Below, piece by piece: positions 12,936 to 62,920 of a DNA stretch of 64,000 nucleotides. Source of the stretch: Marsupella aquatica (lineage: Eukaryota > Plantae > Marchantiophyta). Position 1 is the first letter of the stretch, and each line of letters opens with the position of its first letter. Location: assembly GCA_973895155.1 (NCBI GenBank), contig OZ316895.1:17873437-17937436 (forward strand), written 5' to 3'. The notes below the pieces were generated by a model, which saw only the letters and a program-made list of their open reading frames with translations, did not search any database and was not told the origin of the DNA. Both the position numbers and the translations under genes were made by a program.

Positions 12936-14915
12936 AAATGAGTTGTTGGTCTTGGGTCAATGGACCCAAACCATCGTCAGCAGCTGGGCCCTTGCGGGTT
13001 GTATGAGGACTGTCCTCCAACCGTCTTTCCTTTGCAGGCCGCCTGTCGTTAGGTTCCTTTGTGGATTTTGGTGACAACCCCCGTGACTTGCGGGCACCAT
13101 GACCTCCCAGGGCTGAGGCATCACCCGCATCGCTCTGGTTTTGCTTGGTCAAACTGTTCACGATGACATCCGGCTCGACATCATCCTTGGTTCAGCATCC
13201 AACCCTCTCAAGGCTGGGATCAGTTCCTCTTTTGGGTCCTGACCCTCTTCCTTCGATTCAACTTCTGCATCTTCGTCGCTTCCATCAAAGTCGGAGCTGT
13301 CGTCGTTTGACCCATCCTCTGAAGGATCGGCCACCTCCTTCCCTTTACGTTGACGACGCTCTGCACTTGACGTGTTTGCTGTGGTGGTAGACGGTTTGGC
13401 CGCCACGTCTTTGTTGTCCTGCTTGTAACATTTGTCTCTAGAGGGAAGTCGACCCATCCTCCTTCTATTCTTCTTGAACTTGGGCTCTCCCCTTGGCGGG
13501 GGGAGCCTGTTTGCCACTCTTTGATCGAGTGTTTTTTGCCATGTCCCTAGCAACCAAATCTGCCCGCATTCAACCTGGCAGGCACGTTGAAGCACTAAGT
13601 CCCCACAAAAATCCGTTAAGAGTTTTGGATTCCGACTTAGCACAACCCCGGCCCGGTGTCTATGCCAACAATCGCTCTGATACCACAAGTGGTGGACCTT
13701 GCCACCTAGCGCCCTCACCAATCCCAGCACCCACGCCTACATCAGGAAATTGGTACCCATACTATTCGACGAGGTTTCATGATGTTTTCATCACAACGTA
13801 TAAGCAATATTGATTTACACACAAAGCACATCAATGATGATTCATCGTTGAAATTTTCAGCATTGAATGAGGTATTTTCACCACAGATGTTTTCTATGTT
13901 TAATCATTGTAGTGTCATCATGGATGGATTCATCACATTTTCATTGCTGATGGGCATCACTTTCCATACACCGAAAATTTTGACAATGCTTAAGCAAGGA
14001 TTCATTGTAAAATAAACAATGATTTTCATTACATTTTCATTGTATTATCAGTATCTGTACAACTTGACAATAATATCTAGTGGTCGTATAATGAATCATC
14101 AGCTATTGATCATCGTTGCACTATTATTGTTTTGGAGTTGACATAGTTGTGGCGTCATCATTGAATCAACATGTTTCAATTGTTGAATACCTTTCATTTC
14201 ATCGATAGTTAATTGTATTTACCTTCAATATTCCGTATTGTGTCATTCATTATGCAATGAATTGTCAATGTTGTTTCCACACTGAAAAAACACATCATGA
14301 ATAGACATTGACTCAACATTGTAAAATCATTGTGATTGTTGTAAACCCTAGTTTACCCCTTAACCATAGGGCGAGAACCCTTAACCATAGGGCGAGAACC
14401 CTTAACCATAGTATGAGAACTCCTAACCATAGGACCAGTATAAGGGCATTTGCCTACCATGTAACCAAGGGGATATATATATCCCCTCATCAATAGTAAT
14501 GGATCTATCTTGTTGGAGTATCTTTGAGTGTTCCTTTAGTTGTCTATTACAACACGTTATCAGCACGAGCCAGTCTCTAAAAATCATTTTTTTTCAAGCA
14601 GATGCAATCGAGTTTTACACGAGGAGAATGCTCGTAAAGTGGCATTTTTTTTTAGAAACTGCCATAACCGTTTTTTTTTCTTGGTCTCCATTCTTTTGCC
14701 TCAGAGTTGAATTTTTTTTACAAAACACGAAATTTCACATAGAGCATCAATTCGGGACCAGCATATCGAGAGTCCAAAGGACTAATACTTTATTGGCATG
14801 ATTGAAAGCTCCCTCAGCTCCATATACAAGCTTCCAACCGGTCAATTGTACAATCGAGATACTTCACTCGATTCAATCTTCACCAAAGTTCTTAAATCAA
14901 CTGACATCCCGAATA

Positions 14916-16001
14916 ATGAATACAGTCGAAAAATTATTATGGCCAGCACTTAAAGTCGACGGATCCAACTATTTGACGTGGATCACAGATGTCGAAACTT
15001 ACTTTACATCACAAGACCTTGAAGACACCTTAGATACCGACATCGATGTCACGCTCAAACAAAAGGCTAAGGCAGCGTTTCTACTCAGGCAACATCTAAC
15101 CCCTCAACTAAAGAATGAGTATATGAACGAAATTAATCCAAGAAAACTATGGGATCTCCTCAAAGCCCGATTTGATCATATGAGGGAGATATGGCTCCCA
15201 GAGGCAAGAAGGGATTGGCATAACCTGCGCGTCATGGACCACACCACAATTGCCAATTACAATAGCGCACTGTGCAGAATTACATCTCAATTAGAAATGT
15301 GTGGACATCCAATAAATGACATAGATAGAATCGATAAGACACTATCGACATTCCCTGAATCTAATATCACATTAGGTACACAATATAGGAACATGCGTTT
15401 CACTAAGTACTCAGATCTGATTGCTCACTTACTTGTGGAAGAGAAGCAACAGATCGTGGCCTTGCAAAACGCCAGAAAGCGCCCAGCAGGATCAGACCCC
15501 CCACCACATCGACCTGAAACCCACTACACCAATTATGAAGACAAACAACGAGGAAATTACCGGGGCGGACGAACTCAATTCAGAGGCGGAAGAAACCAAT
15601 TCAGGGGCGGGAGAAATCAATTCAGAGGACAAGGCAAACCTTATAACCGACCCTCCGGATCCAATAACACGTGGCGCAGAGGCACCATGAATAATAGAGG
15701 AAGAGGACGAAGCAACCAATACGACATTGCAAACAATTCCCAGAAAATGTGTTACCGATGTGGCAAAATTGGCCACATTAGAAACGCATGTGCAGCCACA
15801 GAACAAGAGGCCCACAGATACATAAACGACAGAAATAAGTCCAGACAAAACCCCCAAGGACATTATATGGAGATAGAAGAAGAATTGATTGCCTCTCAGA
15901 GAGAAGAAACACAAGAACAGATAGAAGTACATACCTCTCTTACTGACTGGAAATACCCGACATTAGACGACCCCGATACGGGCATCATCGACAGCAGCTA
16001 A
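14916..16001 (+). CDS. gag: Copia Gag, ending at the start of a deleted protease
   Basis: LKVDGSNYLTW, LWDLLKARFDH, RGG-rich region, CYRCGKIGHIRNAC zinc knuckle; ends IIDSS-stop. Confidence 0.9.
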   Translation: MNTVEKLLWPALKVDGSNYLTWITDVETYFTSQDLEDTLDTDIDVTLKQKAKAAFLLRQHLTPQLKNEYMNEINPRKLWDLLKARFDHMREIWLPEARRDWHNLRVMDHTTIANYNSALCRITSQLEMCGHPINDIDRIDKTLSTFPESNITLGTQYRNMRFTKYSDLIAHLLVEEKQQIVALQNARKRPAGSDPPPHRPETHYTNYEDKQRGNYRGGRTQFRGGRNQFRGGRNQFRGQGKPYNRPSGSNNTWRRGTMNNRGRGRSNQYDIANNSQKMCYRCGKIGHIRNACAATEQEAHRYINDRNKSRQNPQGHYMEIEEELIASQREETQEQIEVHTSLTDWKYPTLDDPDTGIIDSS

Positions 16002-16125
16002 TGCGCCATCGCGAGTACAAACCTCCTCGACACCGGCCAATGTAACAGCCCCCAGAGCAAAGCGAGGCAGACCACCAGGGATCAAGGACTCCCAGCCTCG
16101 CCAACGTAAAACTCCAGCAGCAAAC

Positions 16126-18066
16126 TTGGGTACACCCGCGCTGGAACCAGCGATCACACTTAACGTGACAGCGATAAATCAAAACGACCCACTGAGTGAA
16201 GAAAACGAGGAAATGTCAATCACATACATGCAAACAGGTAACATATATAAACGACCGACAACCCAAATTGATGAACAATTTGCCTATAACGTAATACAGG
16301 AAATCACCAACGATATTCCTGATCCGCTCACTATAAACGAGGCAAAGAAACAACCAGATTGGCCAAAGTGGCAAGCAGCAATACATACCGAGATGGACGC
16401 CCTCATCAAGCGACAAGTATTCGGACCATTTAAAATGGCATTACCAGGTACACATTACACCGACTCTCGATTTACATTCTTGAAAAAACGAAATGAGAAA
16501 GGCATAGTAGTAAGATATCGAGCCCGGCTAGTAGCCAAAGGCTACACACAAATCCCGGGCAGGGACTACGATTTAACATACTCACCAGTAATGGACGCTA
16601 CTACATATCGCTATCTCACAACACATTCAGTCCACCATAAACTGGTTAATAACCTTATGGACGTGGTAACCGCGTACCTTTACGGCACACTCGATACTGA
16701 GATATACATGACTGCCCCCCCGGAACTGATAGAGAGGGTCAAGCAGCACATTCAGGGGGAGACGTCCCAGAACCTGAATACAGAGATTAAAAAGGGCATC
16801 AGCCAAATAATACCTGATGGGGATACAAAGGCCCTCTTGATGCAAAGTGGAAATACACAGGCAATGCATACCAGAGGAAAGAAATTAACAACAAAACTTA
16901 CAGTCCAAGTGTTACGTTCCATCAACGGACTTAAACAGAGCGGCAAAATCTGGTATCAGAAATTCCAGACAGAGATGCTCGCCCTCGGATTTACAAATAG
17001 CGGACTGGCCCCCTGCATCTTCATCAAAAAGCATATGGACGAAGTCCTGATACTAGCACTGTACGTGGACGATGTGAACTTATTCGGGACTAAACAGATG
17101 ATGAAAGACACAATACATACACTGAAAGGAGTCTTCGAGATGAAGGACCTTGGAAGACCCAACCACTGCCTAGGCCTGCAGATCGAACACTTAGAAACAG
17201 GCATATTCCTTTACCAATCGACATACACGCAGAAGATACTTCATCAATTCAACATGCAGAAATCCTACCCTGTCCCCACCCCGATGGAACTCAGATCTCT
17301 AGACCCGATCAAAGATATGTTTCGGAAGCGCCAAGAAGACGAACCCATACTGGGATCAGAAAAACCGTACCTATCAGCGGTGGGCGCCCTTATGTATCTA
17401 GCGAACCAGACGAGACCTGACATATCGTTCGCCGTCAGTCTCTTAGCGAGACACAGCGCACAGCCCACCATCAGGCATTGGAACGGCATCAAGAGGATCA
17501 TGAGATACCTACAAGGGACGATCGACCTTGGACTATTCTTTCCTAAGAATAGCCCCGATACGCTTACCGGTTACACTGATGCCGGCTACCTGTCGGACCC
17601 CCAGGACTCCAAATCACAGACTGGGTACATGTTCTTACAGGGGACGACAGCAATATCTTGGCGAAGTTCAAAGCAAACAATGACCACAACGTCATCCAAC
17701 CACTCGGAAATCATAGCGTTATACGAGGCGTGCAGAGAAGCTGTATGGCTACGAAGCATTATCAATCATATTAGGTCCAGCACCGGTAAACCACAGATAA
17801 CAGAGCCAACCACAATCTACGAAGACAATAAGGCGTGTATCGACCAGATAACCAACGGAATCCTGAAGACCGAGAGGACCAAGCATATTGACCCCAAGTA
17901 TTTCTTCACGCAAGAACAACAAGGGAAAAGTATCAATGTTGCATGGATCAAATCTCAGGACAATCGAGCAGACATGTTTACGAAACCACTACCAGCCGGA
18001 TTGCACAGAGCGCACCTCGAAGGCATAGGCATGAGCAGATTGTCCACGATCAAGCCCACCTCATAA
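16126..18066 (+). CDS. pol: Copia reverse transcriptase + RNase H (open frame; first ATG is downstream of the TTG called)
   Basis: RYRARLVAKGYTQ, MDVVTAYLYG, GLKQSG, LYVDD, YTDAGY, RTKHIDPKYF, ADMFTKPL. Confidence 0.93.
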   Translation: MGTPALEPAITLNVTAINQNDPLSEENEEMSITYMQTGNIYKRPTTQIDEQFAYNVIQEITNDIPDPLTINEAKKQPDWPKWQAAIHTEMDALIKRQVFGPFKMALPGTHYTDSRFTFLKKRNEKGIVVRYRARLVAKGYTQIPGRDYDLTYSPVMDATTYRYLTTHSVHHKLVNNLMDVVTAYLYGTLDTEIYMTAPPELIERVKQHIQGETSQNLNTEIKKGISQIIPDGDTKALLMQSGNTQAMHTRGKKLTTKLTVQVLRSINGLKQSGKIWYQKFQTEMLALGFTNSGLAPCIFIKKHMDEVLILALYVDDVNLFGTKQMMKDTIHTLKGVFEMKDLGRPNHCLGLQIEHLETGIFLYQSTYTQKILHQFNMQKSYPVPTPMELRSLDPIKDMFRKRQEDEPILGSEKPYLSAVGALMYLANQTRPDISFAVSLLARHSAQPTIRHWNGIKRIMRYLQGTIDLGLFFPKNSPDTLTGYTDAGYLSDPQDSKSQTGYMFLQGTTAISWRSSKQTMTTTSSNHSEIIALYEACREAVWLRSIINHIRSSTGKPQITEPTTIYEDNKACIDQITNGILKTERTKHIDPKYFFTQEQQGKSINVAWIKSQDNRADMFTKPLPAGLHRAHLEGIGMSRLSTIKPTS

Positions 18067-19393
18067 CACTGAAGCTCGAAAGGATTACCCAACGACGAAG
18101 CTGTCGCCCGATGAAGCCGCCTCCAGATGCCCGACCACCACACTCGGCGAGCGCCACACCACATCCCCGACGTGAAACAACGCAAACCAACGCAAAAACG
18201 CCCGACTTGGCCTCACTAACCCAAAGCACAACACGAAGCGAAGCGCAATACGCAAAACGACATGAAGAACAACACGAGGCGCACACCAGGCAACGAGCTG
18301 AGGGGGAGACTAGACACCCATTAGGAACATTCACATAACCCCACTTAGCACATACGATTAACACTAACTAAGACATGGCAAAAAGGCTTAACCAGGACAT
18401 TAGATATGGGAAACCACCTATATAAGTGATGGTAGCACTCTTTCCTCGAGAAGAAAGCGGCGAGGTTTTAATGAGGCTACATCACACAGGTGGACCCCTA
18501 AACCGGATTATACCCTAGGTTCAAGAGATGTGGTTACTTTATGCTCCTCCATAAACTAACCAAGGGGGAGTGTTGTAAACCCTAGTTTACCCCTTAACCA
18601 TAGGGCGAGAACCCTTAACCATAGGGCGAGAACCCTTAACCATAGTATGAGAACTCCTAACCATAGGACCAGTATAAGGGCATTTGCCTACCATGTAACC
18701 AAGGGGATATATATATCCCCTCATCAATAGTAATGGATCTATCTTGTTGGAGTATCTTTGAGTGTTCCTTTAGTTGTCTATTACAACAGTGATTTCATTG
18801 TTGAATTGTTGTGACATCACTATTGATTTAGATTGGACTCTGAAATAGTTTTGTGTTGTTTCATTGCCCTTTCAATACCATTTCATCAACTAATCATTCT
18901 CATTTCAAGCAACACATTTCCCCAGTTTGGACCTGTGCGACAAATGAGGGGTCTGGTGCCCTACATCTGACACATGTCACACCCCGTCATCCCGACGGGC
19001 CCACACCCAGCCCAACCCTGCCACGACCCCGGCCCCGACTTCAGTGTCCTGGCCTGACCCCGACCTGTTCCACTCGGCTAGGGAATATACTGAGTGGATA
19101 TGTGACATTTGACCCCTTTTAAAGCCGACAGATAACAACTTGTCGCGTTGGACATCACGACAATGTGTTCGTCAGTCCAAAACTGACATTTCCATTGATA
19201 TTTGTTCATTATGTTTTTTAATGACAATGCTAACTTACAAAGGTGTTTCCTCTCACTTGGTGTTAACTAGCCTGAAGCCCAGACATTGTTTTCCTCCTCT
19301 CTCCTCCTCCCAGGCACCCTGTCCCCTCACCCTCTAGCTTCCCTTTCCCTCCCAAGATCCCCCTCCATGACTGTTTCCTCCCCCTGACTGTTT

Positions 19394-19523
19394 GCCTCCC
19401 CCTTGCTCAACATGCCCTGCCCACCCTAACACAGGCTGCCTCCCCCTTGCTCAACATGCCCTGCCCACCCTAACACAGGCTGCCTCCCCCTTGCTCAACA
19501 TGCCCTGCTCACCCTAACACAGG
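19394..19523. repeat. Tandem repeat, ~42-bp unit x3
   Basis: GCCTCCCCCTTGCTCAACATGCCCTGCCCACCCTAACACAGGCT repeated. Confidence 0.9.
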
Positions 19524-19745
19524 CCACTTGGGGCGGACTGTGTCAAACATCCTTGCCTCACTTATTCATTTGCGCCAGCTTTGCTAGTAAATAAGACGTT
19601 TGTCCCTTCAACAGTAGGTGAATCCCATATCGAGGGGTCTCACAGTGGATTTGTGACGGGCCACGAAGAGGAGAGGATTCCGAGTGCAGCTCGAGTAATC
19701 ACTATAGTGACGACGATTGTGTCGAACTCGAATTCGAAGCCTCGC

Positions 19746-20140
19746 ATGGGAGCGTCGACAAATGACCAACGATTTCTGCCGGTGTTCATTCTTGGAACGT
19801 ACTTCGGGCCCGATGTGCGCGAGGAGGTGCCAAGAAAATTGGCGCTGCAGCGAGAGGCGGAGCAGTTGCCTGGCTATGCGGCGGAATTGTTGGGAGGGTA
19901 TGTGTGCAAGCTGTCGGAAAGCGAGAGCGTGTATTACTACCTGCTGCGGAATTCACATCCCAGCGCGAAGGTAAAGCTGCAATCGCTGTGCAAGTTTCTG
20001 CAGGGGCATCGATCTGGCGCCCCCGGTGAAGGAGACTCTGGAAGATGACCGCCAATTCCCGAGCTTCTTCCCTCCGCATTTGCATTGGCATGCTCGGTAC
20101 AAAGGAACGTACAAAGTAGTCGAGAACATAGTGTTTATTG
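19746..20140 (+). pseudogene. Captured N-terminal fragment of an IDM2/IDM3-like (increased DNA methylation, alpha-crystallin-domain family) gene
   Basis: DQRFLPVFILGTYFGPDV..PRKLALQR..LPGY..ESVYYYLLRNSHPS..KFLQG; after a frameshift, DDRQFPSFFPPHLH..YKVVENIVFI. Resembles IDM2/IDM3 N-termini as I recall them. Confidence 0.7.
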
Positions 20141-21369
20141 TCATGGAGGGGTGATTCGGAATTGCTGATCTGGTCTGGTGTAGTAGTTGTGGTGGTAATG
20201 GTGATGGTGCTCTCCTTCCTCTGATGTATGTTCCCATTGGGGAGGGTCGCAAAGAGAAAGATGGCGAGTTCAGGAACTGTTTATGGTGCGAGGTCAGGGA
20301 AGACAAGGTGTGAGATGTGCTTGGAACGTGGGAGCGACCGAATTGCGCATTTTAGGTCATGGGATTGAGTGACGAGATGAGCAACGCGGGGCGGAGGTTG
20401 GAGGAAGGTAGTAGTTGAGTTTAGTTGGAGTTTGTTGATGCAAACATGCCAAAGGTAGGGATCATTATTAGGGTTTTGGTTTCCGCTTCGGTTCGATTCG
20501 ATCCCTTCTCGAGGGAGTGGGAGTGACAGAAAGGGATTGACTGCTGCTTCTATTTGTTGGACGAGATGCATGGCTTTCTATCTTCCAGGTAATGCATTGC
20601 GTCTCTTCTCCCTCTCTTCGCCTCTCGTCTGGTCTTTCAATCTCCTCTGTTCTCTACTATATGCCACTCCTCACTACTCCTTTCTGCTAAGGATTTGGTG
20701 CGAGATTTTGATTTACTTCTCCAAGAACTCATTTGGAGTTATGGTAATTTGGATGTATCGGAGTGCTCCTGAGCGCCGATGCCAAGCTATGCGGGAGGTT
20801 CGATGAGTTGCAACAGAGATTGAACGTTCGCTTTCCTTGCTGTTGAAAGAAACGTACCTTGCTTTACATTACAGATTTACAGTGCTGCACTGTCAGATCC
20901 CTCCAACGGACGACGGATCCAACCGACCACAGCACACCGCTCACTCTGGATGCGGAGTATCTCACGAACGACAAGCTGTTTAAGTTTGCAACGGGACGGC
21001 AGACAGTAAAGTAGACGGATAGGTGTACAAGACAGCACGTTATGGAGCATTGACGTGACTTCTTGAGTCGCAGAAGCAACCCCGAGTTCCTGTCGGTATC
21101 ACATTGAGACACATGAGATGTTATTCATTTACTCAACGTGTATGTACATCCTTACGGACGAAGTTAGGTTGACACGGAATTTCACTCTACCCAGTCAAGT
21201 TAGTCCAAGTTACTATTACAAATAATATCATTCCTGGTTATTACTTGTGTATTTATGGAAATTCAGAAGAACGGCCTTGATCTAAGCTAGAAGATTACGG
21301 ACTGTTTTGTAAACGTGGTCAATTTTCGTTTATGGACGAAGCCTCTAGATGGACGAAGAGGAGAGAAGA

Positions 21370-21407
21370 GAGGACAGGACAGGACAGGACAGGACAGGAC
21401 AGGACAG
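21370..21407. repeat. (GGACA)n microsatellite
   Basis: About 7 direct copies. Confidence 0.9.
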
Positions 21408-22099
21408 AGTGGTGGAATGAAGTCGAGTCAGAGTGGTGGAACGAGTCGAGTCAGCAGATCACTAACAAACCGCGCCACGGTTCCCTAGTTGCGTAGGTAA
21501 AACGATCGCTCTTCTGACCGAGCCATTATTTTGTCCGGCTACGTTACGTTACGCATTCATTCATACGTCAATCAATCAGGTTGAAGGTGAGTTCTGATCA
21601 AATTGTGCGTTCTTCCTCCATTGTAATTTCACAATGAAAGGCTATTGAATGTAGACATTCGTCAGTAGCCAGGTTAAATTTTGAATATTGAGTGAGAATA
21701 ACTACAGTAGCTACTAAATATTTACTAGTCAGACTTCTGAACGACACTGTCCTGCATGTGCTGAATAATAGCGTGACAGGTTATTTTTCGGTCAACTAGT
21801 AGAACATGCTTTGCCAAGTTTGACTAGTTTATATTCAGAAGCTACGAGAAGTTCTCTCGGAACTTCTGTGGTAAGAACAGAAGTCTCGATTTGTGGTGGT
21901 CTTTCGGCCCGCATCTTTTCAGTCCCTACAGGTTAGAACGTCTCTCATATCACAGCATCCAAAACCATTCCGAGTACCAGTAGGATCCTTATGCTGCAGT
22001 GCATAGTGTGTAACAGTCAGTATGACTACTTATATTAGACTAATCTTCCATGGTCTCTTGTTATTATGATTTCAGGATAGAGAATCGGTCGGAAGTGTT

Positions 22100-22742
22100 G
22101 CCCTTCCGGTATCGTCAAGCTGGGGGAAATTCCGATTCATGGCAGCACTTGGGGCCAGGTTCTGCTGCCTCATTTGCGTGGGAAGACCTTCAAAGAGACC
22201 GCATGCTATAACTTCTCGTTTTTTTCTGAGTGAAGCGGACTACTGGTGAAGCGAACTACTGCAATCGCCATCGTGGTCATCGTCGCCTCCTCCTCCTGAG
22301 GCGCCTTTGCCATTGAGGTCATCATCGCCTCCTCCTCCGCCGCAGCTGCAGCAGCGGCAGTCCTATCCCTACCTCGAGTACAATGCTGCTCGAGTCCTCG
22401 GCCGTTTCTCAAGAAGGTCCCGCAACGAGAAGCTTCTCAGGGTCCAGAAATCTTGACCTCCTCCTCAGCTTGTGCGAGTGCTCCATCCCTACCCTTCCCA
22501 GGCCTCCGTGCCCCCACAATTTGCTGCAATCTCCTCCCAGGCGCTGAACCCTTCGGTGCCACGAAGATGGCTCCCGAACGTCTTGAAGACCACCTGCTGC
22601 TGCTAACCAGGCCCGATTGTGATTTCATATCCAAGCATGTTGCGGCTGCTGGAACGGAGGAGGAGCTCGACGTGTAGCCCGAGCTCGAGCTCCTGTCATG
22701 GGCCAGTAGCAGCGAGAGCTGGGAGCTGAACGCGGTAGCCAT
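22100..22742 (-). pseudogene. Captured 5' exon of a plastid-targeted protein gene (possibly PPR)
   Basis: MATAFSSQLS... S/R/A-rich transit-peptide-like N-terminus. Reading frame continues past a TGA at 22437; later a degenerate PPR-like stretch (HAVSLKVF..MRQQNLAP). Confidence 0.5.
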
Positions 22743-25123
22743 GGCGAATTTCCTTTGAGAGCGAGCGAAAGGAGAGGGGTCGGGACGTGATTTTGATAAG
22801 GTCCTGAACTTCTACTGTATTCTTTTCGACGAAGGCAAAAACTGAGGAATGCTTTCTCAAGGGAAAAAGGTCAGAATTCCATGAAAGGGAAATTTATTTG
22901 TTATGCGGTCTCTGACACTATCGTTCGTTCAGTGTTGCAACTCAAACCAGTTTATGATGTTGTCAAACAAGCGCTACAGCACCGGATCATTGATGCAAGG
23001 ATGCATCGACGCTGTACATTGAGGTTGCCCGCCAACAATTCAAGAAGATGTGGACCCTCCATTTCTAAGACTTTCTCTCGTTTTCCCTTTGCTTTTTGGC
23101 TTGTTCTGTTGTCGATTAGACAAAAGAAATTTCAAAACAAAAGCACAACAAGGATTATATATAATTGATGCATGACGAGACCTCGCGGAGGACCACTCTA
23201 CGCGTTGGGCTCCATCCGCTTGCGACTGGAGACATATTCCAGCTTTGGATCGATATGGTAGTGCCTTTTAATCAATGAATTGACGTAATGAACCATCTAT
23301 CTGCGATCTTAATTGTCCCTCGGATCTGCTGCGGTGCCCTCCTTGGGACCCAAGCTGGAGATCCTCAATATCAGATCAGATTCATATGGACAGGGAACCA
23401 CGCGGCTTGGATGGTTGAAAATATGCTCTCTTTTTTCCTACTACAGGCCCCAAGTCTGAGCGGAAGGGGTCACCATGCATCCCGAATTGAAGGTAAAGGT
23501 ATGTGCAGTTCATGCTTGCGTAGTTATCTTGCAGTCCTAATTTCTAGCCCAATGGTCCAGTTCTGAGATACAGCTTAATGAAGTTGGCTTGCCTGCTTAC
23601 AAGAGTGATTAAGTACTAGCTAGCTCTGCACTTCGTAACATATCAGCTATCATCAACAAAAACTAAATACATGTTGGATTGGGGCTGGCAGGCTCTTAGT
23701 GAAGGGTGATCGATGAAACACTTCCTGGGTGACAGAGTCAATGGCATCATGGATCGCAGTCGTAGCACATATCTGGTTCCAAACTGCATCTGACAGGTGC
23801 GTGTCCTCCATACTGGTTTCATAGCACTGGAGTTGGATCTTGTGGCGTCCAAACTTTTTCTCTAGGAATGCACAACTTCATTAATATTGCTCCTCCATCT
23901 GCTGTCGCTTCGTCCAGTCGGTTCTGTATCTCATATCGAGGTCTAGATGTGGAAATAGGGTGGACCTTCCAAGTAACATTTTAAACTGGCGATCCTGAAA
24001 AATGGCTGCGCTTATTTAGCTACAGTAGTGATCATGGAATTGGGGCGAATAGGACTCTGGCCTAATGAACACCCCGCTATATGGATCTCTGCCTAGATGT
24101 GAAATTTGGTGCTAATGTAGTGCCGCAATGGCTTTCAATCGTTGGAGGTCCCGCAACTAAATGATCGTGCTCAGCGTCATCGATCTTGATCATGCTTATA
24201 AACTTCCTGATGTGTATCATGCAACAAAGTTTAATACTGAACTCTCTTGAACACATTTGGTGTGTAACTTTATCGACATTGAAGGGAACCGGTAGTTGAC
24301 ATGCAAATTCTTCTGGTACAGGTTTGCAAGACTGGAAATCCTTACGGAATTGCGGAGGAGATAGTGTTTAGTATGCCGTGCAGGTTTAAGGTAGCTAATC
24401 ATATCTTCATTTTATTGGTATCTTAGGATTTCTAAAAGATTGTATGCTTGTCTTAAAGATTGTTGTCAGATTGACTTCCTCCGTAAAATCTGACTTCATC
24501 TGAATATGTAAGCCATGTTGGCAATGCTAATTAAGGAATTGTAGGTTACCCTGGTTTTAAAACCATTTTGGCTTTCATTTACACGTGTTCAGCCCATCCC
24601 AGGGTGGACATCATTCTTCTCACAGCTCATGCCAGAGTGCGAGAAGAATCATGATGAAAATCTAAATGTGAGAGAAAAAAAGTAAGTTCAAATAAGCATT
24701 CACTGTGCAAGGGGTTTTTGACATTAGTAGGGTTTGTCATGAGTAATAAATTACCTAAGAACGGATGAGGATGCAGCTAATATACCGTTGCTGCTAAATG
24801 TAGGCTGCTCTGAAGACGTGCTCGAGCTGTTTCTTCTCATTTATCCCTGGATTTTTCTAGCTGCTTTACACCTGACCTCCCAGACCCCATTACTGTACTA
24901 CAGACGTTGATCAGAATCATAGGGCAGACGAAAGGAAACACGGTGAGAAGGAGAGTGGAGGGAGAGGATCACGAGGAACCACACTCGAGGGTGGTTAATG
25001 AAACGAGGAGGCAGGTTGGGCACTTAGAATTGGATACTTGTCCAGAAGAAGAGGAAGATTTCGGAGGGATTTCGTCTATTCCAAAGAAGACAAGTACATG
25101 TCTCATTTTCCATTTTGCACAAT

Positions 25124-27622
25124 ATGATGTATGACTGTGACATTTGTGGATGTAAGGGTTTCAAAAACCCTGGGGGCTTAGCATCACATAAGGCAACCAG
25201 TCGTGCTTGCAAATTGGCTGGTGTTTGCAAGAAGAACACTGACATGGGACCCCAACGGGAGATTGAACAAACCTGTGATTTGGAACAACAGACGGCAGAT
25301 GATTTTATTAACTTGATGGATCCATTAGCATCTAAGTTTTCTACGCCAGAAGCCAACGATGTTGAAGATGTGATGTGTACTCCGTTCAGTGAGTTTTGTA
25401 AAGGTAGCAAACCGAAGCATCGGTTTGATTCTACATTACGTCTTGTGGCCTTTATACGACAATGTAGAAATACCATGGGCCTTTCTGTGAAAGACATTAG
25501 AAGGCTGTTAGGGCTGCTTTTCCATCCCAAGTTTTGTTTGGATGGTATCACTGTAAAAAATGCAAGTGATCTTCTTAAGTATGAGAAGCAGATGGCGAGA
25601 ACTCATTGTACAGAATGGAACCAAGTGATAGTCCGAGAGAGGGATGAACGTGTGCCGGAGTTGACACTACACTATCAAGATCCAATCGAAGCATTGTCCC
25701 TGTTATTCTCAAATGCATGCAACAAAGAGGATTTTAAATTGGGTCCTACTAGAGCAAACTCAAGAGGTTCTTACAGTACTCCAGACACTGGACAGTGGTG
25801 GAGTAAAATGCAGGTGAGCTTTCATACTTTGGAATACATTTCTTGGGTTGGATTTTATAATCAGCTTCATGATAATAACACTATGTCTCTCTTTGTGATC
25901 GGCATGTAGGATGAAATTGATAAGAAGTGCCCTGGCGGAGTCATTGCAGCGGTGATTCTTTACTCTGACCAAACACCATTGTCAAATAACCAAAGAGTCA
26001 GTGGGTACCCATTGATGATGTCTTTGGCAAACATTGCATGTGCTGGAAGACGTGAGAAGTTTGGTAATGCCTTGTTGGCCATACTCCCTACGTATGGAGC
26101 CTGCGATCCAGATATTACAAATGCAACCAATCCGACTCTTCTCAAATCTTCTTTGCTACACAAGTGCTTGAGTATAGTGTTGGCACCATTGAAAGAACTG
26201 AGTTACATGTAAGTGATCAAACTGAGAAACTGAGTTACATGTAAGTGTTCAAACTGAGTTACGTGTAAGTGATCGAAGTGGCTATCTATTTGATGAAGAC
26301 TTGAAATTCTGCTGCACTAATGCATCAATGTTGTATCTGTTTCAGAGGTTTGCCATTGGAAGATCCTAGCGGATCACAGAAGTGGGTGTTTCCATTGATT
26401 TATGGATATATTGGGGACCATCCAGAAACCTGCAAGGTGACATGCACCTTTGATTCAAATCGATGTAATTTCCCTTGCAGTGTTTGCTTGTGTCCTAAAG
26501 ATCAGCTGAATGCAGTGGCATTGAGACATGAGTACAGAGAAGAAGCTCAAATGAAAACTATTCATCGTGAGATGATCAGTTTACCTACAAATATGACTAA
26601 TGAAGTATCCAGACTAAATTCAATACATCCGGTTGAGGTATGTTAACAAGTCCTTCTCTTTTTGTACCTAGCAGTCTGTTTTTACATCAATATTGATATT
26701 TGAGTCTTTTCCTATAGGTCAATTTTGACACTTGTGATTGATTGTGATGTGCAGTGTGCCTTGTGGGATTTTTTTGGTGGAAATACTATCCTTGGGAATC
26801 CCTATAGGTCTGTTCATCCCGATAAAATGCACCAATTTGACTTAGGATTATTCAAAACTTTTATTAGCATTCTCAAAGCGATGGCAGTTGAAGTGCCGAG
26901 AGTAACCTTCAAGCATAAAGCATTGGACATCTTAGATAAAAGGATGGCTTTAGTTGCACTTAATCATAGGTATCCAGAATTCAGATTGCCTGCTTGTAAG
27001 GGGAGAACTGGATATTTTACATCTAACGCCACATTCCAAGCATTTGAGCACCGTTCGGTGTTCCAAGTTATTATTCCGTTACTGCTGGGAGTGTATCCAA
27101 CACCCGTCATCATCAACGATTACTTGCCATTGGTAAAAAAGATTGCACACCCACAGACCTTGAAAGCTCTCGTGAAAGGGAAACTGCTCTTGATAAGGTA
27201 AGTATGAGCATGGAAGTTCATATTCTTGTTAAAGTTCAAATAGACTTTAGATAGAAAAATGTGTGAACAAAATACTCTTTATGAAGTAAGTCTGATTGAA
27301 ACTCCGAAGTCAAATACTTCTGCGGTGTATAGCAAGTTTTTATGTAGCTATGTAATGAATATAATTATACCAATAGTTCTGTTGCCCGGGCCCAAGTGTT
27401 TGACAAGTGGAATTTTTGTTCTTGGATTTGCAGGCTGTACGTTCAGGAGCTAGTGTGTTGATGGGCTTGAAATTACGTTTCCAAATGGAATGGTTACAAA
27501 GAAGACCTGAAGATGTACCTTCCCGTGGAAAGGGTCTTCTGACTGCACAACCTGAAATTAGAACGAATCTGAAAATGACTGTTGAAACCTATTGTAGAGA
27601 AAACGATTTACATGATTTGGAG
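25124..27622 (+). pseudogene. Plavaka-type transposase, intron-containing, apparently internally deleted (exons ~25124-25813, 25910-26208, 26346-26637, 26755-27197, 27433-27621)
   Basis: N-terminal C2H2-like finger; VILYSDQT..GYPLMMSLANI; PLIYGYIGDHPETC; PDKMHQFDLGLFK. The first three GT-AG introns preserve the frame. Confidence 0.85.
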
Positions 27623-27663
27623 GTACAAACTTTCTCACCTTTGTATTCATCAATTCATCAATT

Positions 27664-27790
27664 CTGAGGGCACCATGCGCTTGTACCAATCCGGCTTCTC
27701 ACCGTAGCACCGCATGTTGATTTTCTCCACTTGGTAATTGATCTGCTTCTCCTCCAGCTGAAGCCACACCCGCTCACAGTAAGGGTGTGT
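27664..27790 (-). pseudogene. Captured glutathione S-transferase N-terminal fragment (Iota-class-like)
   Basis: [40 protein letters not shown]. Confidence 0.75.
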
Positions 27791-30059
27791 TGCTTTGGGG
27801 TTTGGATGGAAGATCTTCTCATACTTTTTCTTCTCAAAACTTGTAGTTTTGATTCTCAAGTTTTGATGGCAAAGCTGGGATGATTCGTAAAAGAGTCCAG
27901 CAGGAGGAATTGATCCTGGAGAAGATACCGCTACTGCTATGCTTCTAGGGCTTCCTCCAACTGTTACGCTGAGCTGAGATTCCTCTGCCCGGGCAAGGTT
28001 TCCCCAACAGAGCCTTCGCGTAATGAATATTCTTTCCTTAGTCCATGGGAAGGAAAGATGAGACTTGAAATTTGAGGGGTCTGCAAGATTGCACTACTTA
28101 GACTGATTTGAACCTTTGTCAAACAGGTAAGATTGTATTTCTCAAAACTGTACCATTGAGCTCCGTATTCCCGACACGGGAACGGAGCTGACTCGATGGA
28201 ACTTTTGGATATGGACCGCTTTAGGCAACAGTCCTCAGCCAGGTATGATTAATTTTGTATGAATGTCATTTTGTTGGATTTGATGTGACCAAACAACCTT
28301 GAATACATTCTCAACAAAGACGTTTGATTTGCAGAGTTTATCCTTCATCTTCCGGTTTGATTGGTATTGGCATCCGCCATTGTTCTTGTACACGGCCTTC
28401 AGGTAATGAGACTGAAGAGCGATTTCAACGTTATGCGTGCCTACTTTTAAACAGAAACTCTTGTTCCAGCACCACGGTGTGACATTTATAGTTGCGGGAA
28501 TTTCCTGCTATGAGGCTTATGTGATCAAGACTTGAGTTGAACTTCAAGTTTGATTCCTTTTTCGTGTTAAGAAGCACAGGGTGGGTGGGAGGGGAGGGGA
28601 GGGGAGGGGAGGGGAGGCTGTTACATTCATGTTGTATGTGTCTCTTCACGGATTGTATAAGAGCCAAGTTTAAGAATGATGGATAGCCTTTATTTCTGGA
28701 TTGTAGGAGAGGGAGGGAAGCGCTTTCACGTTCATGTCATCTGTGTCTAATCACGATGGATTGTACAGATGATGGCTAGGCTTTATTTCTAAGTAGTCTC
28801 TTTTCAGAAACCTGAGATTCTGGTTTGTGTATAGCGCAGAAAGGACAGTGTAGGCAACTTACAAATGAACGCCTGTCAAGATGCCCTAAGAGTCTGTCCT
28901 TTACACAACCCAAGGATAACATGTGACTTCTGGCTGAAGTATTTTAGTACCAATTCGACAGGCTTTTGACTCTGTACTTTCTGTGGGTACAGTGAAATAC
29001 GGGAGAAGGAACGAGCTTCTTGATACCTGGATATGCCTTTCACAATTGTTTCAATATTCTATTCTAAGATCATTGCATTCTTGACAGATAGCCGGTACTC
29101 TCAGTTGGAAAGGAGTCATTTAACTTTTGCAAGTTATCCGGACTCCGAAACAGTTTCTCGGTCCCACCGTATTTATGTTGGAGGAGGACGCGTAGTGCAG
29201 ATTAGAAGACAAGTAGGAATGGAAAGAAGGGATGCGGTGCGGGATGCGGTGCGGAGAGATGGATGTGTGATTTTAAGAATTTGCTGAAGCAGTGGTAGCA
29301 GGAGGCAGGGAGGGTGGCGGGGAGGGAGCAGGGAGTGTCGTCAATGAACATCAGTTGCTCGCAATCGGTGCGTGTGGATGGGGACTTGGCCGCCCCGTGT
29401 GGCGTCACGGTTTCTTGCAGACAAGGCACGTCATTGCTTGTTGGTGTGCTCTGTTGTTCCTTGTTTGGTGGAATTTACATACTATGACAACATTTTCCGT
29501 GATGGATCTTCGAGAATTATGGTTGCCTTCGCACTTTTTCTGGTCTTGTCATGCCATATTTTAAATTATTTCAACGGGGCGAGATGGATGGTATCCGAAT
29601 CCAGGTGAGAGAAGATTCTTGCGGAAGTCATGCAATGTAGCCAGGTGGACGGAGTGCCGAGAAAAAGAGTGGTCAATGTGTCTGAAGATGGGATCGCTCG
29701 GATTTGCGTGTGGGCTCTGCGCTGGCTCTCACATGTATGAAGAGAGTGGCAGGATAGGTCGGCAAGCACCAGAAAAACAAGTCTTCTCCCAAGATTTAGA
29801 GCTCTGGACTAGCCCAAGTTAATCTTAAATTAGGAAAGTTCTCTTATGATTCTCTAGGACAAACTGTCATGATTGGAATCCAGCGGTAACATATTTGTTA
29901 AAACTTTGATAACTCTAGCTCTAGTCGACCTTTAATATGGAGACGAATATTTGACTACATAGCTCAAATTTCTTTTGCATCTTGATCAAAAGTTCATTGG
30001 AAACATTTAAAGTGAGCTTTTGAAATAGGTTGCGAAAGTGTATTCAAATTGGAAACATT

Positions 30060-31079
30060 GGGATACCCCAAAAAATTTATCTATTCAATGATAGTTGTGA
30101 TGCATCAACAACAAATCATTGTCTCTGTCAACAACATTGATGAGCTTAAGGGAGATTGATGAAATAACAATGGAATAACAACTTCTCACCAATAAGATGA
30201 CAATGCAAATACAAGGAAATGATAATGAGAAAATAGTATTGAAATGCTAATGAAATGACATTAAATTGACATAGATTCAACGAGGAACTGAAAAAGAATC
30301 TGTAATGAAAAAATGACAAATAAATCACGAGGAACTGAAAAAGAATCTGTAATGAAAAAATGACAAATAAATCACACTGGTGATATTCTGAAAACTATGT
30401 TGAACTAACAACAAATCAACTACAAAAACACTGTTGTTTATCGAGTACCAAATGATGACCAATGTCACAATGAAATGGCACTGAAATGACAATTTAACAG
30501 ATGATGAAATAATGATAAACTCATGATACAATATGGCACTGAAATGACAATTTAACAGATGATGAAATAATGATAAACTCATGATACAATATGATGGAAA
30601 TCATGATGATGGATCAATGGAATGGTATTGGATCAATATTGACTGAATGACAATGGACAAATGATATAGGTTCATGATGAAAGGACAATGATTTGTCAAT
30701 GAAGTGATAATGAATAAGCAATGAAACATGAATGATCCTTCAATGAAAATATGGCTTTTACACAATGAAAACACAATGATTACACACTAATGTGGCATTG
30801 ATATATTGATAATTCAACATGCTAGACCAATGATGAATCAATGCAAATTCTTTGTTTATTATTTTGAAATTGAATCAATGTTGATCATACAATGGATAAT
30901 TGATGAATCAATTTAAAAAAAATACAAAACAATGAATCAATGAGTAAACATTGTAAATTCAACAATGACATGTCAGCGTGTAATAAGCAATGACACATTA
31001 CTTGGTCAATATCGTACCCCGCACAGTCAATTTCATTGATGATTATTTGATGAATATTCTTCACCCCATTTTCCTGATG
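30060..31079. repeat. AT-rich subterminal region of the Plavaka element with many short CAATGA/TCATTG motifs and local duplications
   Basis: Mirror-image composition of 13740-14336 and 18789-18910; duplications at 30279-30375 and 30470-30592. Confidence 0.7.
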
Positions 31080-31149
31080 TAAGTGCCCCTGGTGCCCGAA
31101 CGCCTCCATGGAATACTTCGAGCAAGCCACTTAGTGCCCCTTGCACCCA

Positions 31150-31493
31150 TGTTAGATATTGCTCTAGTCTTGTGACTCATGGACTAACCATAGTTAGTCT
31201 AACTTGGGTTAGGACTTAGCTAATGTTAGCGGTAGTGCTGTTGTGCATATAGTCAGGGCTGATGCTAGACCCTGGTGAAACTTAGGCTCATTGTTACGGA
31301 GCTAGTTGAGAGATAGGAAGAGCTTGCGCTGTGGATGCTTGGTATGGCCAGTCGGCCTAGAGTGCAGTAAAGCTCTTGTGTGTTCCCGTGGACGTAGCCT
31401 CATGTGGAGGTGAACCACATATTTTTCTGTGTCAGCTATTGTGCGTTGGATGGTTCATGGGCTTGCCGTTACGAATGTCGTCTATGATCAACA
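31150..31493 (+). mobile_element. Solo LTR (344 bp), same family as 917-1264
   Basis: TGTTAG...TCAACA with TSD ACCCA at 31145-31149 and 31494-31498. Confidence 0.9.
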
Positions 31494-42912: not shown

Positions 42913-42944
42913 GAATAAAGTTAGTGCGCCAATGGACGACGCTT

Positions 42945-44410
42945 AACATGTGTTAATACCGATCAAATGCACAGAATGGCGGGCCAGCCCGGCCAGGTCA
43001 CGATCCGTCTCATACATTCTGCTCAAACCTCTTCTACTTTACGCAATACCTGCAGCTTGTTGTTTCTTGTTTCCCTGTCGTGACTGCTTTCCTTTCCTTT
43101 CCTTTCCTTTCCTTTCCTTTCCTTTCCTTTCCTTGTTCCTTCCGCGTGCACCGAGCGATCCCTCAACGATAGATTCACAGGAAATTCCGCGTGCACCGAG
43201 CGATCCCTCAACGATAGATTCACAGGAAATTGACTGGCTATACTTTACATCAGCCTAACATGTGTGACCACCAATCAAATGCGACGGGATCGCGGGCCAG
43301 GCCACGATCCCTCTCATCCCTCCTGCTCGAACCATTCAATCCTATTGTATTGTATGCAACACCTACTGTTCGTTTCTTCTCTCCTCGTAACTTCTTTCCT
43401 TTCCTTCCCTTCCTTTTCCTTCTACCTTTCAAGTGGAGCAAGCGATCCCTCAACAATATCTTCACAGGAAATTGAATGGCTATACTTTACAGCCGGTCTA
43501 ACATGTGTGAACATCGATCATATGCGACGGAATCGCGGGCCAGGCCACGATCCCTCTTATCCCTCTTGCTCAAACCATTCGATGCTGTTGTATTGTATGC
43601 GATACCTGCTCTTCGTTTCTTCTGTCCTTCTCGTGACTCCTTCCCTTCTACCTTTCCCTTGTAGCAAGCGGTCCCTTAACAATAAGTTCACTCAAATTAA
43701 CTGGCTACACTTTACAACCTGCCTAACATGTGTGAACATCTACCATTTGCGACGGAATCGCGGGCCAGGCCTCCCTCATCAAACCATTCGATCCTTTTGT
43801 ATTGCCTGCCATATCTGCTCTTCGTTTCTGCTCCCCTTCTCTTGTCTCCTTCCCTTCCCTTCCCTTCCCTTCCCTTCTTCCTCTCCCGTGTAGCAAGCAA
43901 TCCCTCGACAATATGTTCACTGGAAATTAACTGCCTACACCTAAACTCTACAACCGGGCTAACATGTGTGGACACCGATCAAATGCGACGGAATCGCGGG
44001 CCAGATCACGATCCCCCTCATCCCTCCTGCTCAAACCATTCGATTCTATTGTACTGCGTGCAATACATGCGCTTCGTTTCTTCTCTCCTTCTCGTGATGT
44101 CTTTCCTTCCCTTTCCTTCTTCCTTTCTCATGGAGCAAGCGATCCGACCTCTCAACAATATATTAACCTGAAATAAACTGCCTATACTTTACCGTCAGCC
44201 TACCATGGGTGATCACCGATGAAATGCGACGGAATCGTGGGCCAGGCCACGATACCACTGATACCCCCTGCTCAAATCATTCGATCCAACATTATTGCAA
44301 CACCTGCCCTTCATTTCTTCTCTCCTTCTCGTGATTTCTAGCCTTCATCCTTTCCCGTGTAGCAAGCGATCTCTCAATAGTACGTTCACAGGAGAGTGAC
44401 TGGCTATACT
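42945..44410. repeat. Tandem satellite, ~230-310-bp unit x6, with embedded (TTTCC)n/(TTCCC)n tracts
   Basis: AACATGTGTG..ATGCGACGGAATCGCGGGCCAGG..TGCTCAAACCATTCGA..AGCAAGCGATCCCTCAAC..TTCACAGGAAATT recurs at ~42945, 43258, 43500, 43726, 43961 and 44203. Confidence 0.9.
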
Positions 44411-45139
44411 TGACAATCGAGCAGTCTTGAATGTGAAAAAAGCAACCAATCTGGTCGGATCCGGTGGGGTCCCGGGAGTACAGTATCTTTGTGCCACTTG
44501 ACCACCAGGACAAAAATAATATATTGTTTGTTTGGCCGGAACGGTAAATTTTAGATTTTAGCGAGTGTACGGTGGCTTGACAAGAAATAGGGGGCCATTG
44601 CTTTTTGCTTTGTCCCCGTATGATTAAATATTGACCTTATAATGAGTAGAATGACAGCAAGATTAATATGGACTTTACAATGAGTAGAATTAGTTACAGG
44701 TGGCTTTGCAAAAACTCCCGGCCCATTCAGGTATGATGTCCACCCATCCTGCATGACAAACAATGCATGGGCTGGGTGTCCATAAATAATGGAAAATGTT
44801 AAATAAAAGATACCTTACCAAATATGTTATTGTGCCAAAAATGTCTCGATGGAAGTCATTGAAGGAAAGACCTGTCTTGGAGGCAAGGTGAAATTTTGAG
44901 CCCTATACCCATGCATTGCATAATTATCATTGTGAGTGTGTTGTGCTTGTGGTTGGGTTGGGGCAGTTATGCTGTGGTTGTTGAAAGTCAACTTTTGTCG
45001 TCATGGTGGCCCATTGATTGTTGTGCAAGTGTTATCATTGGTTGTGTCATCTTATCATCTATGTAATCATGTTGTGGTTGTGGAAGTGTCTTATAATCTA
45101 TGTAATCATTTTAGGCCTCTTCCCTCTAAAATGTAAGAA

Positions 45140-45611: not shown

Positions 45612-45906
45612 CCCAAGGTCCTCACTTCTTTTCTTGCGACCCATCATGCGCAAATAAGTATAGGGTTTTTTATTGGATTTAGTGAAATACTTTTAAATTT
45701 TTGTTGAAGAACATTAGTGTTATTTTAATCCAATCTTAAGAATTATAAGAATCATAGGGTTTTTTAAAATCAAATTTGGGAATATTCCATTAAGTTAGGG
45801 TTATAAAAATTCCTCAAAAAAACTTTATTGACTTAAGTTTTAGGGTGTTTATTCCCCCAAAACTATGTGCGTGATATGGAACACCCCTTGGACTGAGGCC
45901 CCAGAG
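45612..45906 (-). mobile_element. MITE family B, 295 bp, 8-bp TSD CTTATAGC
   Basis: Reverse complement of 47892-48195; TSD at 45604-45611 and 45907-45914. Confidence 0.88.
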
Positions 45907-47891: not shown

Positions 47892-48195
47892 CTCGGGGGC
47901 CTCAATCCAAGGGGTGTCCCATATCACGCTCAGTTTTGGGGGAATAAACACCCTAAAAGTTAAGTCAATAAAGTTTCTTTTAGGAATTTTTTTACCCCTA
48001 ACTTAATAGAATATTCCAAGAATATTCCCATATTTGATTTAAAAAACCCTATGATTCTTAGAATTCTCAAAATTGGATTAAAATAACCCTAATGTTCTTC
48101 AACAAAAATTTAAAAGTATTTCACTAAACCCAATAAAAAAACCCTATACTTATTCGCGTGTGATGGGTCGGAAGAAAAGAAGTGAGGACCCCGGG
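47892..48195 (+). mobile_element. MITE family B, 304 bp, 8-bp TSD AGACAGAG
   Basis: TIRs CTCGGGGGCCTCA / TGAGGACCCCGGG. Removal restores the LINE endonuclease sequence IGSVYAPN. Confidence 0.9.
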
Positions 48196-62743: not shown

Positions 62744-62910
62744 GTGCCCTCCGATAGATAGGAACTGAGTCTAGAATCGTATGGCCAAACTGGAAAGGAT
62801 CATGTGCGACATTCAGGGGAGATAGCAGCTGACTAAGGAAAAGCGAGAGAGTTGGGATCGAAGCTGGCGCGGGAACTGGAGAGCTTGGTGCACTGCAAAG
62901 GATCGGCTCC

Positions 62911-62920
62911 CTTTTATACC
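62911..62920 (-). promoter_or_regulatory. Putative TATA box upstream of the insert ORF
   Basis: GGTATAAAAG on the minus strand about 100 nt upstream of the inferred ATG. Confidence 0.45.

What the first reader, a model, noticed from the sequence alone, without database searches (positions are those of the whole stretch)
13740..31079. Giant cargo-carrying Plavaka-type transposon with exact ends (CATCAGGAAA TIR, TA duplication)
Seen: a chromovirus LTR breaks at ...CACGCC-TA (13739) and resumes 17,340 bp later at TA-AGTGCCCC (31080), matching the uninterrupted LTR at ~48980. The insert has 14-bp TIRs with one mismatch, long AT-rich subterminal regions, a spliced transposase with Plavaka motifs, and several unrelated host-gene fragments on both strands. 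Known: Plavaka transposases were described mainly in fungi (CMC/CACTA-related, linked to TET/JBP genes); Pack-type gene capture is known mostly for MULE, CACTA and Helitron elements. Inference: this is a 'Pack-Plavaka' of ~12.9 kb (excluding the nested copia) that moved as one unit after the chromovirus inserted. It defines termini and TSD for a poorly characterised plant family.
Basis: partly seen in the sequence, partly recalled or inferred. Interest (0 to 1): 0.88.

Follow-up and report, generated by a model that had tools for sequence, protein, structure and literature searches.

The report
Liverwort Plavaka transposon carrying host-gene fragments
A 17-kb cut-and-paste transposon of the Plavaka kind, with exact ends and a broken transposase gene, sits inside a retrotransposon of what is likely a liverwort and holds dead pieces of at least four host genes that it probably carried along, which would extend gene-fragment shuffling to a transposon group described mainly in fungi and algae.

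Summary
Window 13740-31079 (17,340 bp; 12,883 without a nested copia) interrupts a chromovirus LTR, has a TA duplication, 13/14-bp TIRs and TCAT-rich arms; empty sites exist in two window paralogs and 4 of 4 sequencing runs. The spliced transposase hits Pfam Plavaka and is 43% identical to a Calypogeia protein, but a ~105-codon deletion with frameshift removes the region holding the last catalytic motifs, so this copy is likely non-autonomous. Dead fragments of four host genes were identified: an alpha-crystallin-domain protein, VPS13, NADP-malate dehydrogenase and a glutathione transferase. Read depth suggests about six copies with variable interiors; a 1.5-kb block appears 33-51 times and likely came from another repeat family. 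The ends are not new: fungal PlavakaB has CATCA..TGATG ends and 2-3-bp duplications, and 6-24 kb is normal. New is a bounded PlavakaB in a land plant working like Pack-CACTA. Paired ends at other loci were not tested (no genome). The scan noted a fungal 'Pack-Plavaka' before on other DNA (unchecked).

The parts
13738..13739 (.). Left copy of the TA target-site duplication
   Evidence: Single TA in empty sites
13740..13753 (+). Left terminal inverted repeat (PlavakaB-type)
   Evidence: 13/14 match to right end; same start as fungal PlavakaB families
13754..14336 (.). Left AT-rich subterminal arm with oriented TCAT motifs (continues 18794 to about 18900)
   Evidence: depth about 6x the single-copy level in run X1
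14337..18788 (+). Nested young copia retrotransposon, identical 218-bp LTRs, GTGAT duplication (14332-14336, 18789-18793), integrase region missing
   Evidence: copia-free joint 14331-18789 in 3 of 4 runs and 1,460-bp gap against a 5,370-bp contig
19393..19524 (+). Three tandem 44-bp units; a one-unit form exists in another copy
19641..20139 (+). Dead N-terminal fragment (residues about 12-174) of a host SHSP/alpha-crystallin-domain protein gene; frameshift near 20010
   Evidence: 86-90% identical to liverwort proteins, tblastn, 4 of 55 invariant residues changed
22077..22220 (+). VPS13 exon fragment behind an intron acceptor, with an in-frame stop near its end
22209..22811 (-). Unidentified coding-like stretch that resembles the start of a gene with a transit peptide (resemblance is my reading, no database hit)
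24322..24390 (+). Chloroplast NADP-malate dehydrogenase exon with both splice sites
   Evidence: E 1.2e-7 to PDB 7mdh; AG/GT borders; a donor-like single-depth contig about 90% identical over 24265-24556
25124..27114 (+). Plavaka transposase exons 1-4 (25124-25813, 25910-26208, 26346-26637, 26755-27114), 547 codons open
   Evidence: PF18759 hits; 43% identity to P0001 residues 1-536, GT-AG introns
27115..27622 (+). Out-of-frame transposase remnant after a ~105-codon deletion (exon remnant 27434-27622); C-terminal exons absent
   Evidence: same sequence, no gap, in a 2,825-bp contig of X1
27664..29138 (.). High-copy block from another repeat family, with further exon-like pieces (left border approximate)
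   Evidence: 33-51x in X1, about 100-146x in X4; other copies continue differently after 29138
27665..27784 (-). Glutathione-transferase N-terminal exon fragment, closest to cyanobacterial Sll1902
   Evidence: GST_N_2 36.2 bits; E 5e-15 to PDB 9r0w
29139..30050 (.). Right inner region shared by most copies, unidentified
   Evidence: About 5.5x depth in X1; no Pfam, NCBIfam or PDB identification
30050..31065 (.). Right AT-rich subterminal arm with inverted TCAT motifs
31066..31079 (-). Right terminal inverted repeat
31080..31081 (.). Right copy of the TA target-site duplication
13690..13737 (-). End of the interrupted chromovirus LTR, next to the primer-binding site (the LTR continues 31082 to about 32842)

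Best explanation
This is a PlavakaB-type cut-and-paste DNA transposon with a broken transposase gene and dead host-gene fragments inside, which likely moved with its cargo using transposase supplied by an intact relative, as Pack-CACTA elements do. Shown: ends, TA duplication, insertion into an older chromovirus LTR, Plavaka exons, the deletion and frameshift, four identified fragments, a nested copia. Inferred: the transposase binds the short TIRs and the TCAT arrays of the arms, cuts the element out and inserts it with a 2-bp stagger; the family (about six copies in run X1) picked up genomic pieces with their introns, by repair at the excision gap or by joining the ends of neighbouring copies; pieces then decayed and were deleted differently in different copies; a 1.5-kb block from another, much more numerous gene-capturing repeat replaced the 3' end of the transposase; the copia landed in this copy's left arm last.
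For: Junctions, TSD and empty sites. Ends match published PlavakaB. PF18759 on 3 of 5 transposase pieces, 2 above the cut-off; 229 of 531 aligned residues identical to the Calypogeia Plavaka protein P0001. Fragments of four unrelated genes, two with intron borders. Summed contig depth in X1 against 16.4 over the transposase: arms 93-103, left cargo 37-61; in X4 against 21-25: arms 143-205, left cargo 74-122. Copia-free form at depth 77 in X1, about five copies' worth. Other copies show internal deletions within the cargo (21327-21624 and 21851-22990 in both X1 and X4). A zero-difference contig over the decayed ACD piece has twice the single-copy depth in X2 (72.8 vs 36.5). Single-depth contigs about 89-90% identical to cargo exons and running on into other sequence look like the donor genes (X2 record 13, X1 record 6).
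Against: No listed contig spans the element or links both ends at another locus; loose ends at the TIRs were not among the rows shown (141 hidden). The tool warns that summed contig depth is no copy number, and donor genes add to exon depth. X1 may be the sample the window came from; the four runs are two studies. In X1 the transposase and the 24.1-25.3 kb cargo are near single depth, so this exact arrangement may never have moved again. No intact transposase was found. Much of the interior is unidentified (no convincing hit among 124 further ORF pieces). The capture mechanism is borrowed from Arabidopsis Pack-CACTA; no internal TIR remnant was found above chance.
Confidence: 0.8

Rival explanations
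1. The ends are a real Plavaka insertion, but the interior is a junk pile: gene fragments arrived after the jump, as pieces of other gene-capturing elements or by rearrangement, and Plavaka itself does not capture genes.
For: The 27664-29138 block is far more abundant than the arms and continues differently in other copies; the copia is nested; the transposase and MDH region are near single depth in X1.
Against: The left cargo, non-coding parts included, is at 2.3-3.7x (X1) and about 3-5x (X4), below the arms, with deletion variants in both runs, as expected of sister copies; no TSD or element ends were found around the left-cargo pieces.
Confidence: 0.12
2. It is an autonomous giant Plavaka whose extra genes are working accessory genes, as in red algae (PAG1-3) and fungi (TET/JBP).
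For: Size and ends fit those elements; the largest fragment comes from an alpha-crystallin-domain family that has an 'Increased DNA methylation 3' cluster as a weak look-alike (score 0.85, lead only).
Against: Transposase deleted and frameshifted; the ACD piece lacks the crystallin domain, is frameshifted and has 4 radical changes at 55 invariant sites where the four named liverwort homologs have none; the others are single exons.
Confidence: 0.04
3. The extra copies are segmental duplications of one old insertion, not new jumps.
For: Flanks are too repetitive for depth to tell; no second insertion site was seen.
Against: Copies differ by several percent in the arms and in content, and most lack the copia.
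Confidence: 0.03
4. The structure is an assembly join.
For: No listed contig spans the whole stretch.
Against: Both flanks continue the same LTR base for base with a TA duplication and TIRs at the breakpoints; zero-difference contigs tile 24218-27693 in X1 and parts in X4.
Confidence: 0.01

Closest known systems
PlavakaB DNA transposons of Agaricomycotina, CMCT clade (Kojima 2025, PMC12730594)
   Same: CATCA..TGATG ends (15 bases identical to PlavakaB-1_SLL at the left end, 13 to PlavakaB-3_ScCi at the right), 2-bp TSD, PF18759 transposase, size in the 6-24 kb range.
   Different: Land-plant host; no TET/JBP gene; interior made of dead fragments of unrelated host genes; transposase broken.
Giant Plavaka elements of red algae (Bostrychia, bioRxiv 10.1101/2025.02.11.637652)
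   Same: Plavaka transposase plus extra coding DNA, 17-19 kb.
   Different: Those carry three conserved accessory genes and fill a third of the genome; this family looks low-copy and its cargo is decayed host exons.
Pack-CACTA of Arabidopsis (PMC6379663) and soybean Tgm-Express1 (PMC1947982)
   Same: EnSpm-related short TIRs, non-autonomous, several unrelated host-gene fragments with introns between the ends.
   Different: CACTA ends and 3-bp TSD there, CATCA ends and 2-bp TSD here; this copy keeps two thirds of its transposase; mobility and transcripts are shown there, not here.
Plavaka transposase candidates in Archaeplastida (Spirogyra genome, PMC13519894)
   Same: Plavaka transposase in streptophytes, including a moss.
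   Different: [quoted passage not shown]

Membership tests
PlavakaB (CMCT clade) | Transposase of the Plavaka family (PF18759) | tested here: met
   48.3 and 33.5 bits on two exons, cut-off 26.3; exon 1 at 16 bits, below cut-off; P0001 127.7 bits
PlavakaB (CMCT clade) | Termini 5'-CATCA..TGATG-3' | tested here: met
PlavakaB (CMCT clade) | 2- or 3-bp target-site duplication | tested here: met
   TA at this one site; whether TA is a rule was not tested
PlavakaB (CMCT clade) | [quoted passage not shown] | tested here: inconclusive
   C(2)C and an [M/L]H-like motif present; the stretch that holds HAMSH and E615 in P0001 is deleted here. Which residues are catalytic is assigned from the recalled CMC pattern and the motif order in PMC12730594 and PMC4079192, not from an alignment or a usable model
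PlavakaB (CMCT clade) | Transposase groups with the PlavakaB lineage in a tree | not tested
   No fungal Plavaka proteins were retrieved (searches gave only P0001); Atlas look-alikes of P0001 are Plavaka clusters
Autonomous accessory-gene Plavaka (red algal PAG, fungal TET+) | Intact transposase | tested here: not met
   Deletion, frameshift, stops from codon 584, C-terminal exons absent
Autonomous accessory-gene Plavaka (red algal PAG, fungal TET+) | Complete conserved accessory genes | tested here: not met
   Only fragments; no SET, methylase or TET/JBP hit among 145 pieces scanned
Pack-TYPE TIR elements (packFinder definition) | TIR pair with TSD, 300-15,000 bp apart | tested here: met
   12,883 bp without the copia; 17,340 bp with it, above the limit
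Pack-TYPE TIR elements (packFinder definition) | Interior matches host coding sequence | tested here: met
   Four genes identified at protein level
Pack-TYPE TIR elements (packFinder definition) | No transposase match longer than 250 bp | tested here: not met
   1,641 coding bases of transposase remain; so it works like a Pack element but is not filed as one
Pack-TYPE TIR elements (packFinder definition) | Repeated in the genome | tested here: inconclusive
   Depth and copia-free joints point to sister copies; no second locus with paired ends could be read (no genome)

The most novel reading that the evidence does not exclude
Liverworts keep a recently active PlavakaB lineage that shuffles host exons and relays cargo between transposon families: a 1.5-kb gene-fragment block amplified by another element was handed to Plavaka, and in some sister copy the captured N-terminal half of the alpha-crystallin (IDM-like) gene is intact and works as a decoy or small-RNA source that alters silencing, the plant counterpart of TET/JBP in fungal Plavaka. 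The relay half alone is about even odds; the functional half is what makes the whole unlikely.
Probability: 0.06. Interest if true: 0.75.

Novelty: new variant of a known kind. Interest (0 to 1): 0.42.

Why it matters
It gives a land-plant Plavaka with base-exact ends, so the family can be searched and annotated in bryophyte genomes, and it runs against the statement that Plavaka was lost in land plants. It adds Plavaka to the DNA-transposon groups that appear to capture host exons and extends that behaviour to bryophytes. Terminal sequence shared over 15 bases with a mushroom family makes vertical conservation against plant-fungus transfer a testable question. The individual ingredients (PlavakaB ends, giant Plavakas, Pack-type capture in CACTA relatives) are all known, so a specialist would find it useful, not startling.

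Tried and rejected
No whole genome is held, so the genome-wide search for paired ends could not be run. A pattern merging both termini found 0 matches in JGI metagenome contigs; a transposase-exon scan gave 1 weak locus of 158 candidates (L001, 36% over 33 residues, GC 0.60, not pursued). A search with P0001 returned only itself among 7,993 candidates, so no tree was built. A single-sequence fold of P0001 was unusable (pLDDT 34) and no fold search followed; P0001 has no PDB sequence match. One search used a wrong exon-3 start and was redone. No RNA holder was listed, so nothing is said on expression. The second read-laying did not show loose ends at the TIRs among the rows printed. Internal CATCAGGAAA-like sites are at chance level (6 found, 7.0 expected). 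Unidentified cargo pieces gave nothing usable in Pfam, NCBIfam, PDB or plasmids; the ArsB, TadF and VIR_N hits are sub-threshold and were dropped. Orthology of the ACD donor to Arabidopsis IDM2/IDM3 could not be shown. The class name 'iota' for the GST is recalled and was not confirmed. My first idea that the host has a 120-bp LTR in tandem arrays was rejected: the LTR is about 1.47 kb and a solo LTR interrupts it. X2 has almost no cover over 26214-27481, but only 57% of that run was read, so this is not used.

Full report
Boundaries. The left flank ends CACGCC-TA at 13739 and the insert starts CATCAGGAAA; it ends TTTCCTGATG at 31079, followed by TA-AGTGCCCC. Two paralogous LTRs in the window carry the same sequence with one TA. 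Contigs from 4 of 4 laid public runs join 13737 to 31080 with a two-base overlap; these are paralogous LTRs, which is all an empty-site test needs. The TIR is 10 bases perfect, 13 of 14, and the exact 10-mer occurs only at the two breakpoints. Both arms are AT-rich with inward-oriented TCAT motifs far above base-shuffled controls. The host is a chromovirus whose two LTR parts that can be compared are 91.9% identical (455 of 495), so it is older than the insert if they are a pair.

Nested copia. 14337-18788 has identical 218-bp LTRs and a GTGAT duplication, gag and RT hits and a 1,460-bp gap against a 5,370-bp contig. A copia-free joint, 14331 to 18789, is present in 3 of 4 runs. Net element size is 12,883 bp.

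Transposase. Of 21 pieces scanned, three of the five transposase pieces hit PF18759, two above the cut-off. The only relative found is P0001 from the liverwort Calypogeia fissa. Four GT-AG-separated exons give 547 open codons, 229 of 531 aligned residues identical to P0001 residues 1-536. Homology then jumps to about residue 640 in another frame; stops follow from codon 584; residues 537-645 and 730-840 of P0001 have no convincing match among 826 six-frame pieces of the element. The lost part holds KVHAMSH and NMYEQLH in P0001. [quoted passage not shown] A 2,825-bp contig of run X1 has the same sequence with no difference or gap, so the deletion is in the DNA. This copy is therefore very likely non-autonomous.

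Cargo. Four donors are identified. (1) 19641-20139: the N-terminal 174 residues of an SHSP/alpha-crystallin-domain protein, 83-90% identical to the five best hits, four of them named liverwort proteins, frameshifted, lacking the crystallin domain, with 4 of 55 invariant residues changed in the first frame and 0 of 24 in the second (leave-one-out counts were 0 for 7 of the 11 homologs and 2-6 for the other four). (2) 22077-22220: a VPS13 exon (28 hits, best 83%). (3) 24322-24390: an NADP-malate dehydrogenase exon with both splice sites. (4) 27665-27784, minus strand: a glutathione-transferase N-terminal exon. Intron borders point to capture from DNA. The rest is unidentified: 124 more ORF pieces gave no convincing Pfam hit, 24 none in NCBIfam. 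The liverwort assignment rests on these best hits and is an inference.

Copy structure. Summed contig depth is not a copy number, but long zero-difference pieces give a baseline (16.4 in X1, 21-25 in X4). In X1 the arms are about 6x, the left cargo 2.3-3.7x, the transposase 1x, the copia 25x and 27.66-29.14 kb 33-51x; in X4 the arms are 6-9x, the left cargo 3-5x, the transposase 2-3x and the block about 100-146x. The copia-free joint carries 4.7x in X1, matching one copy with the copia and about five without. Both runs show deletion variants inside the cargo. Single-depth contigs about 89-90% identical to cargo exons and running on into other sequence are probably donor genes. The high-copy block continues differently after 29138 in 2 contigs of X1 and 3 of X4, so it is likely a piece of another repeat family. 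Against all this: no contig spans the element, no second insertion site was read, X1 may be the source sample, and the four runs come from two studies.

Mechanism. Best reading (0.8): a PlavakaB element moved in trans by an intact relative, which captured genomic fragments as Pack-CACTA does, either at repaired excision gaps or through hybrid elements formed from neighbouring insertions (PMC6379663, passages). Order: chromovirus first (shown by the split LTR and TSD), Plavaka next, copia probably last (identical LTRs, absent from sisters). When the high-copy block arrived relative to the last jump is open.

Comparison with print. PMC12730594 (first seventh of the text, passages, and supplement searches; Figure S2 itself not seen) gives PlavakaB ends and TSDs, and its supplement lists families starting CATCAG(C/G)AAA with lengths of about 6-24 kb. 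bioRxiv 10.1101/2025.02.11.637652 (passages; supplements not seen) describes 17.4-19.1-kb red-algal Plavakas with three accessory genes. [quoted passage not shown] PMC8903248 (passages and section 15) shows Pack elements in all main TIR superfamilies of maize and rice; PMC1947982 (abstract) describes a CACTA with five host fragments; the 2026 review PMC13317346 (passages) has 0 mentions of Plavaka, bryophyte or Marchantia. Yuan and Wessler 2011 was not held. I found no paper on a bounded land-plant Plavaka or on host-fragment capture by Plavaka in searches 13 (20 papers with the word, 16 listed, three read), 43, 68, 80, 87 and 104; subscription journals and Repbase were not searched. The scan's own notes hold many giant fungal Plavakas and a fungal 'Pack-Plavaka', none on a liverwort element; these are unchecked.

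Verdict. Real feature; PlavakaB by transposase family, ends and TSD (tree not tested); works like Pack-CACTA but fails the strict no-transposase rule. New variant of a known kind, interest 0.42.

Noticed in passing
window 31150-31493: A solo LTR of another family (TG...CA, 344 bp, ACCCA duplication) sits in the same chromovirus LTR about 70 bp from the Plavaka insertion; a related LTR lies at 916-1264 next to a primer-binding site.
   Followed up: partly
window 28243-28334: A GT..AG intron in the high-copy block is skipped in one contig in each of 4 runs; the runs look genomic but their kind is not on record, so this may be an intron-less copy.
   Followed up: no
window 13739/31079 joint: Run X3 has a host-LTR variant reading TA-AG-TA at the empty site (depth 168). 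It could be an excision footprint, but a 4-bp tandem duplication in a paralogous LTR explains it equally.
   Followed up: no
window 52019-56214 and 59326-63286: Two 4-kb insertions split chromovirus copies and hold long ORFs (53121-54998, 625 aa; 60548-62770, 740 aa; both minus strand) with no Pfam hit.
   Followed up: no
window 45617-45908 and 47890-48190: Inverted repeat pair of about 300 bp, 88% identical, possibly a long-TIR DNA element.
   Followed up: no
window 42941-44416: Degenerate tandem array of about 240-bp units with pyrimidine microsatellites.
   Followed up: no
window 26196-26282: The exon-2 splice donor of the transposase is triplicated as a ~31-bp tandem repeat.
   Followed up: no
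window 25306-27621: Runs of organism B (X3, X4) show 2-3x depth with variant letters over the transposase, so other transposase-bearing copies, perhaps intact, exist there.
   Followed up: partly
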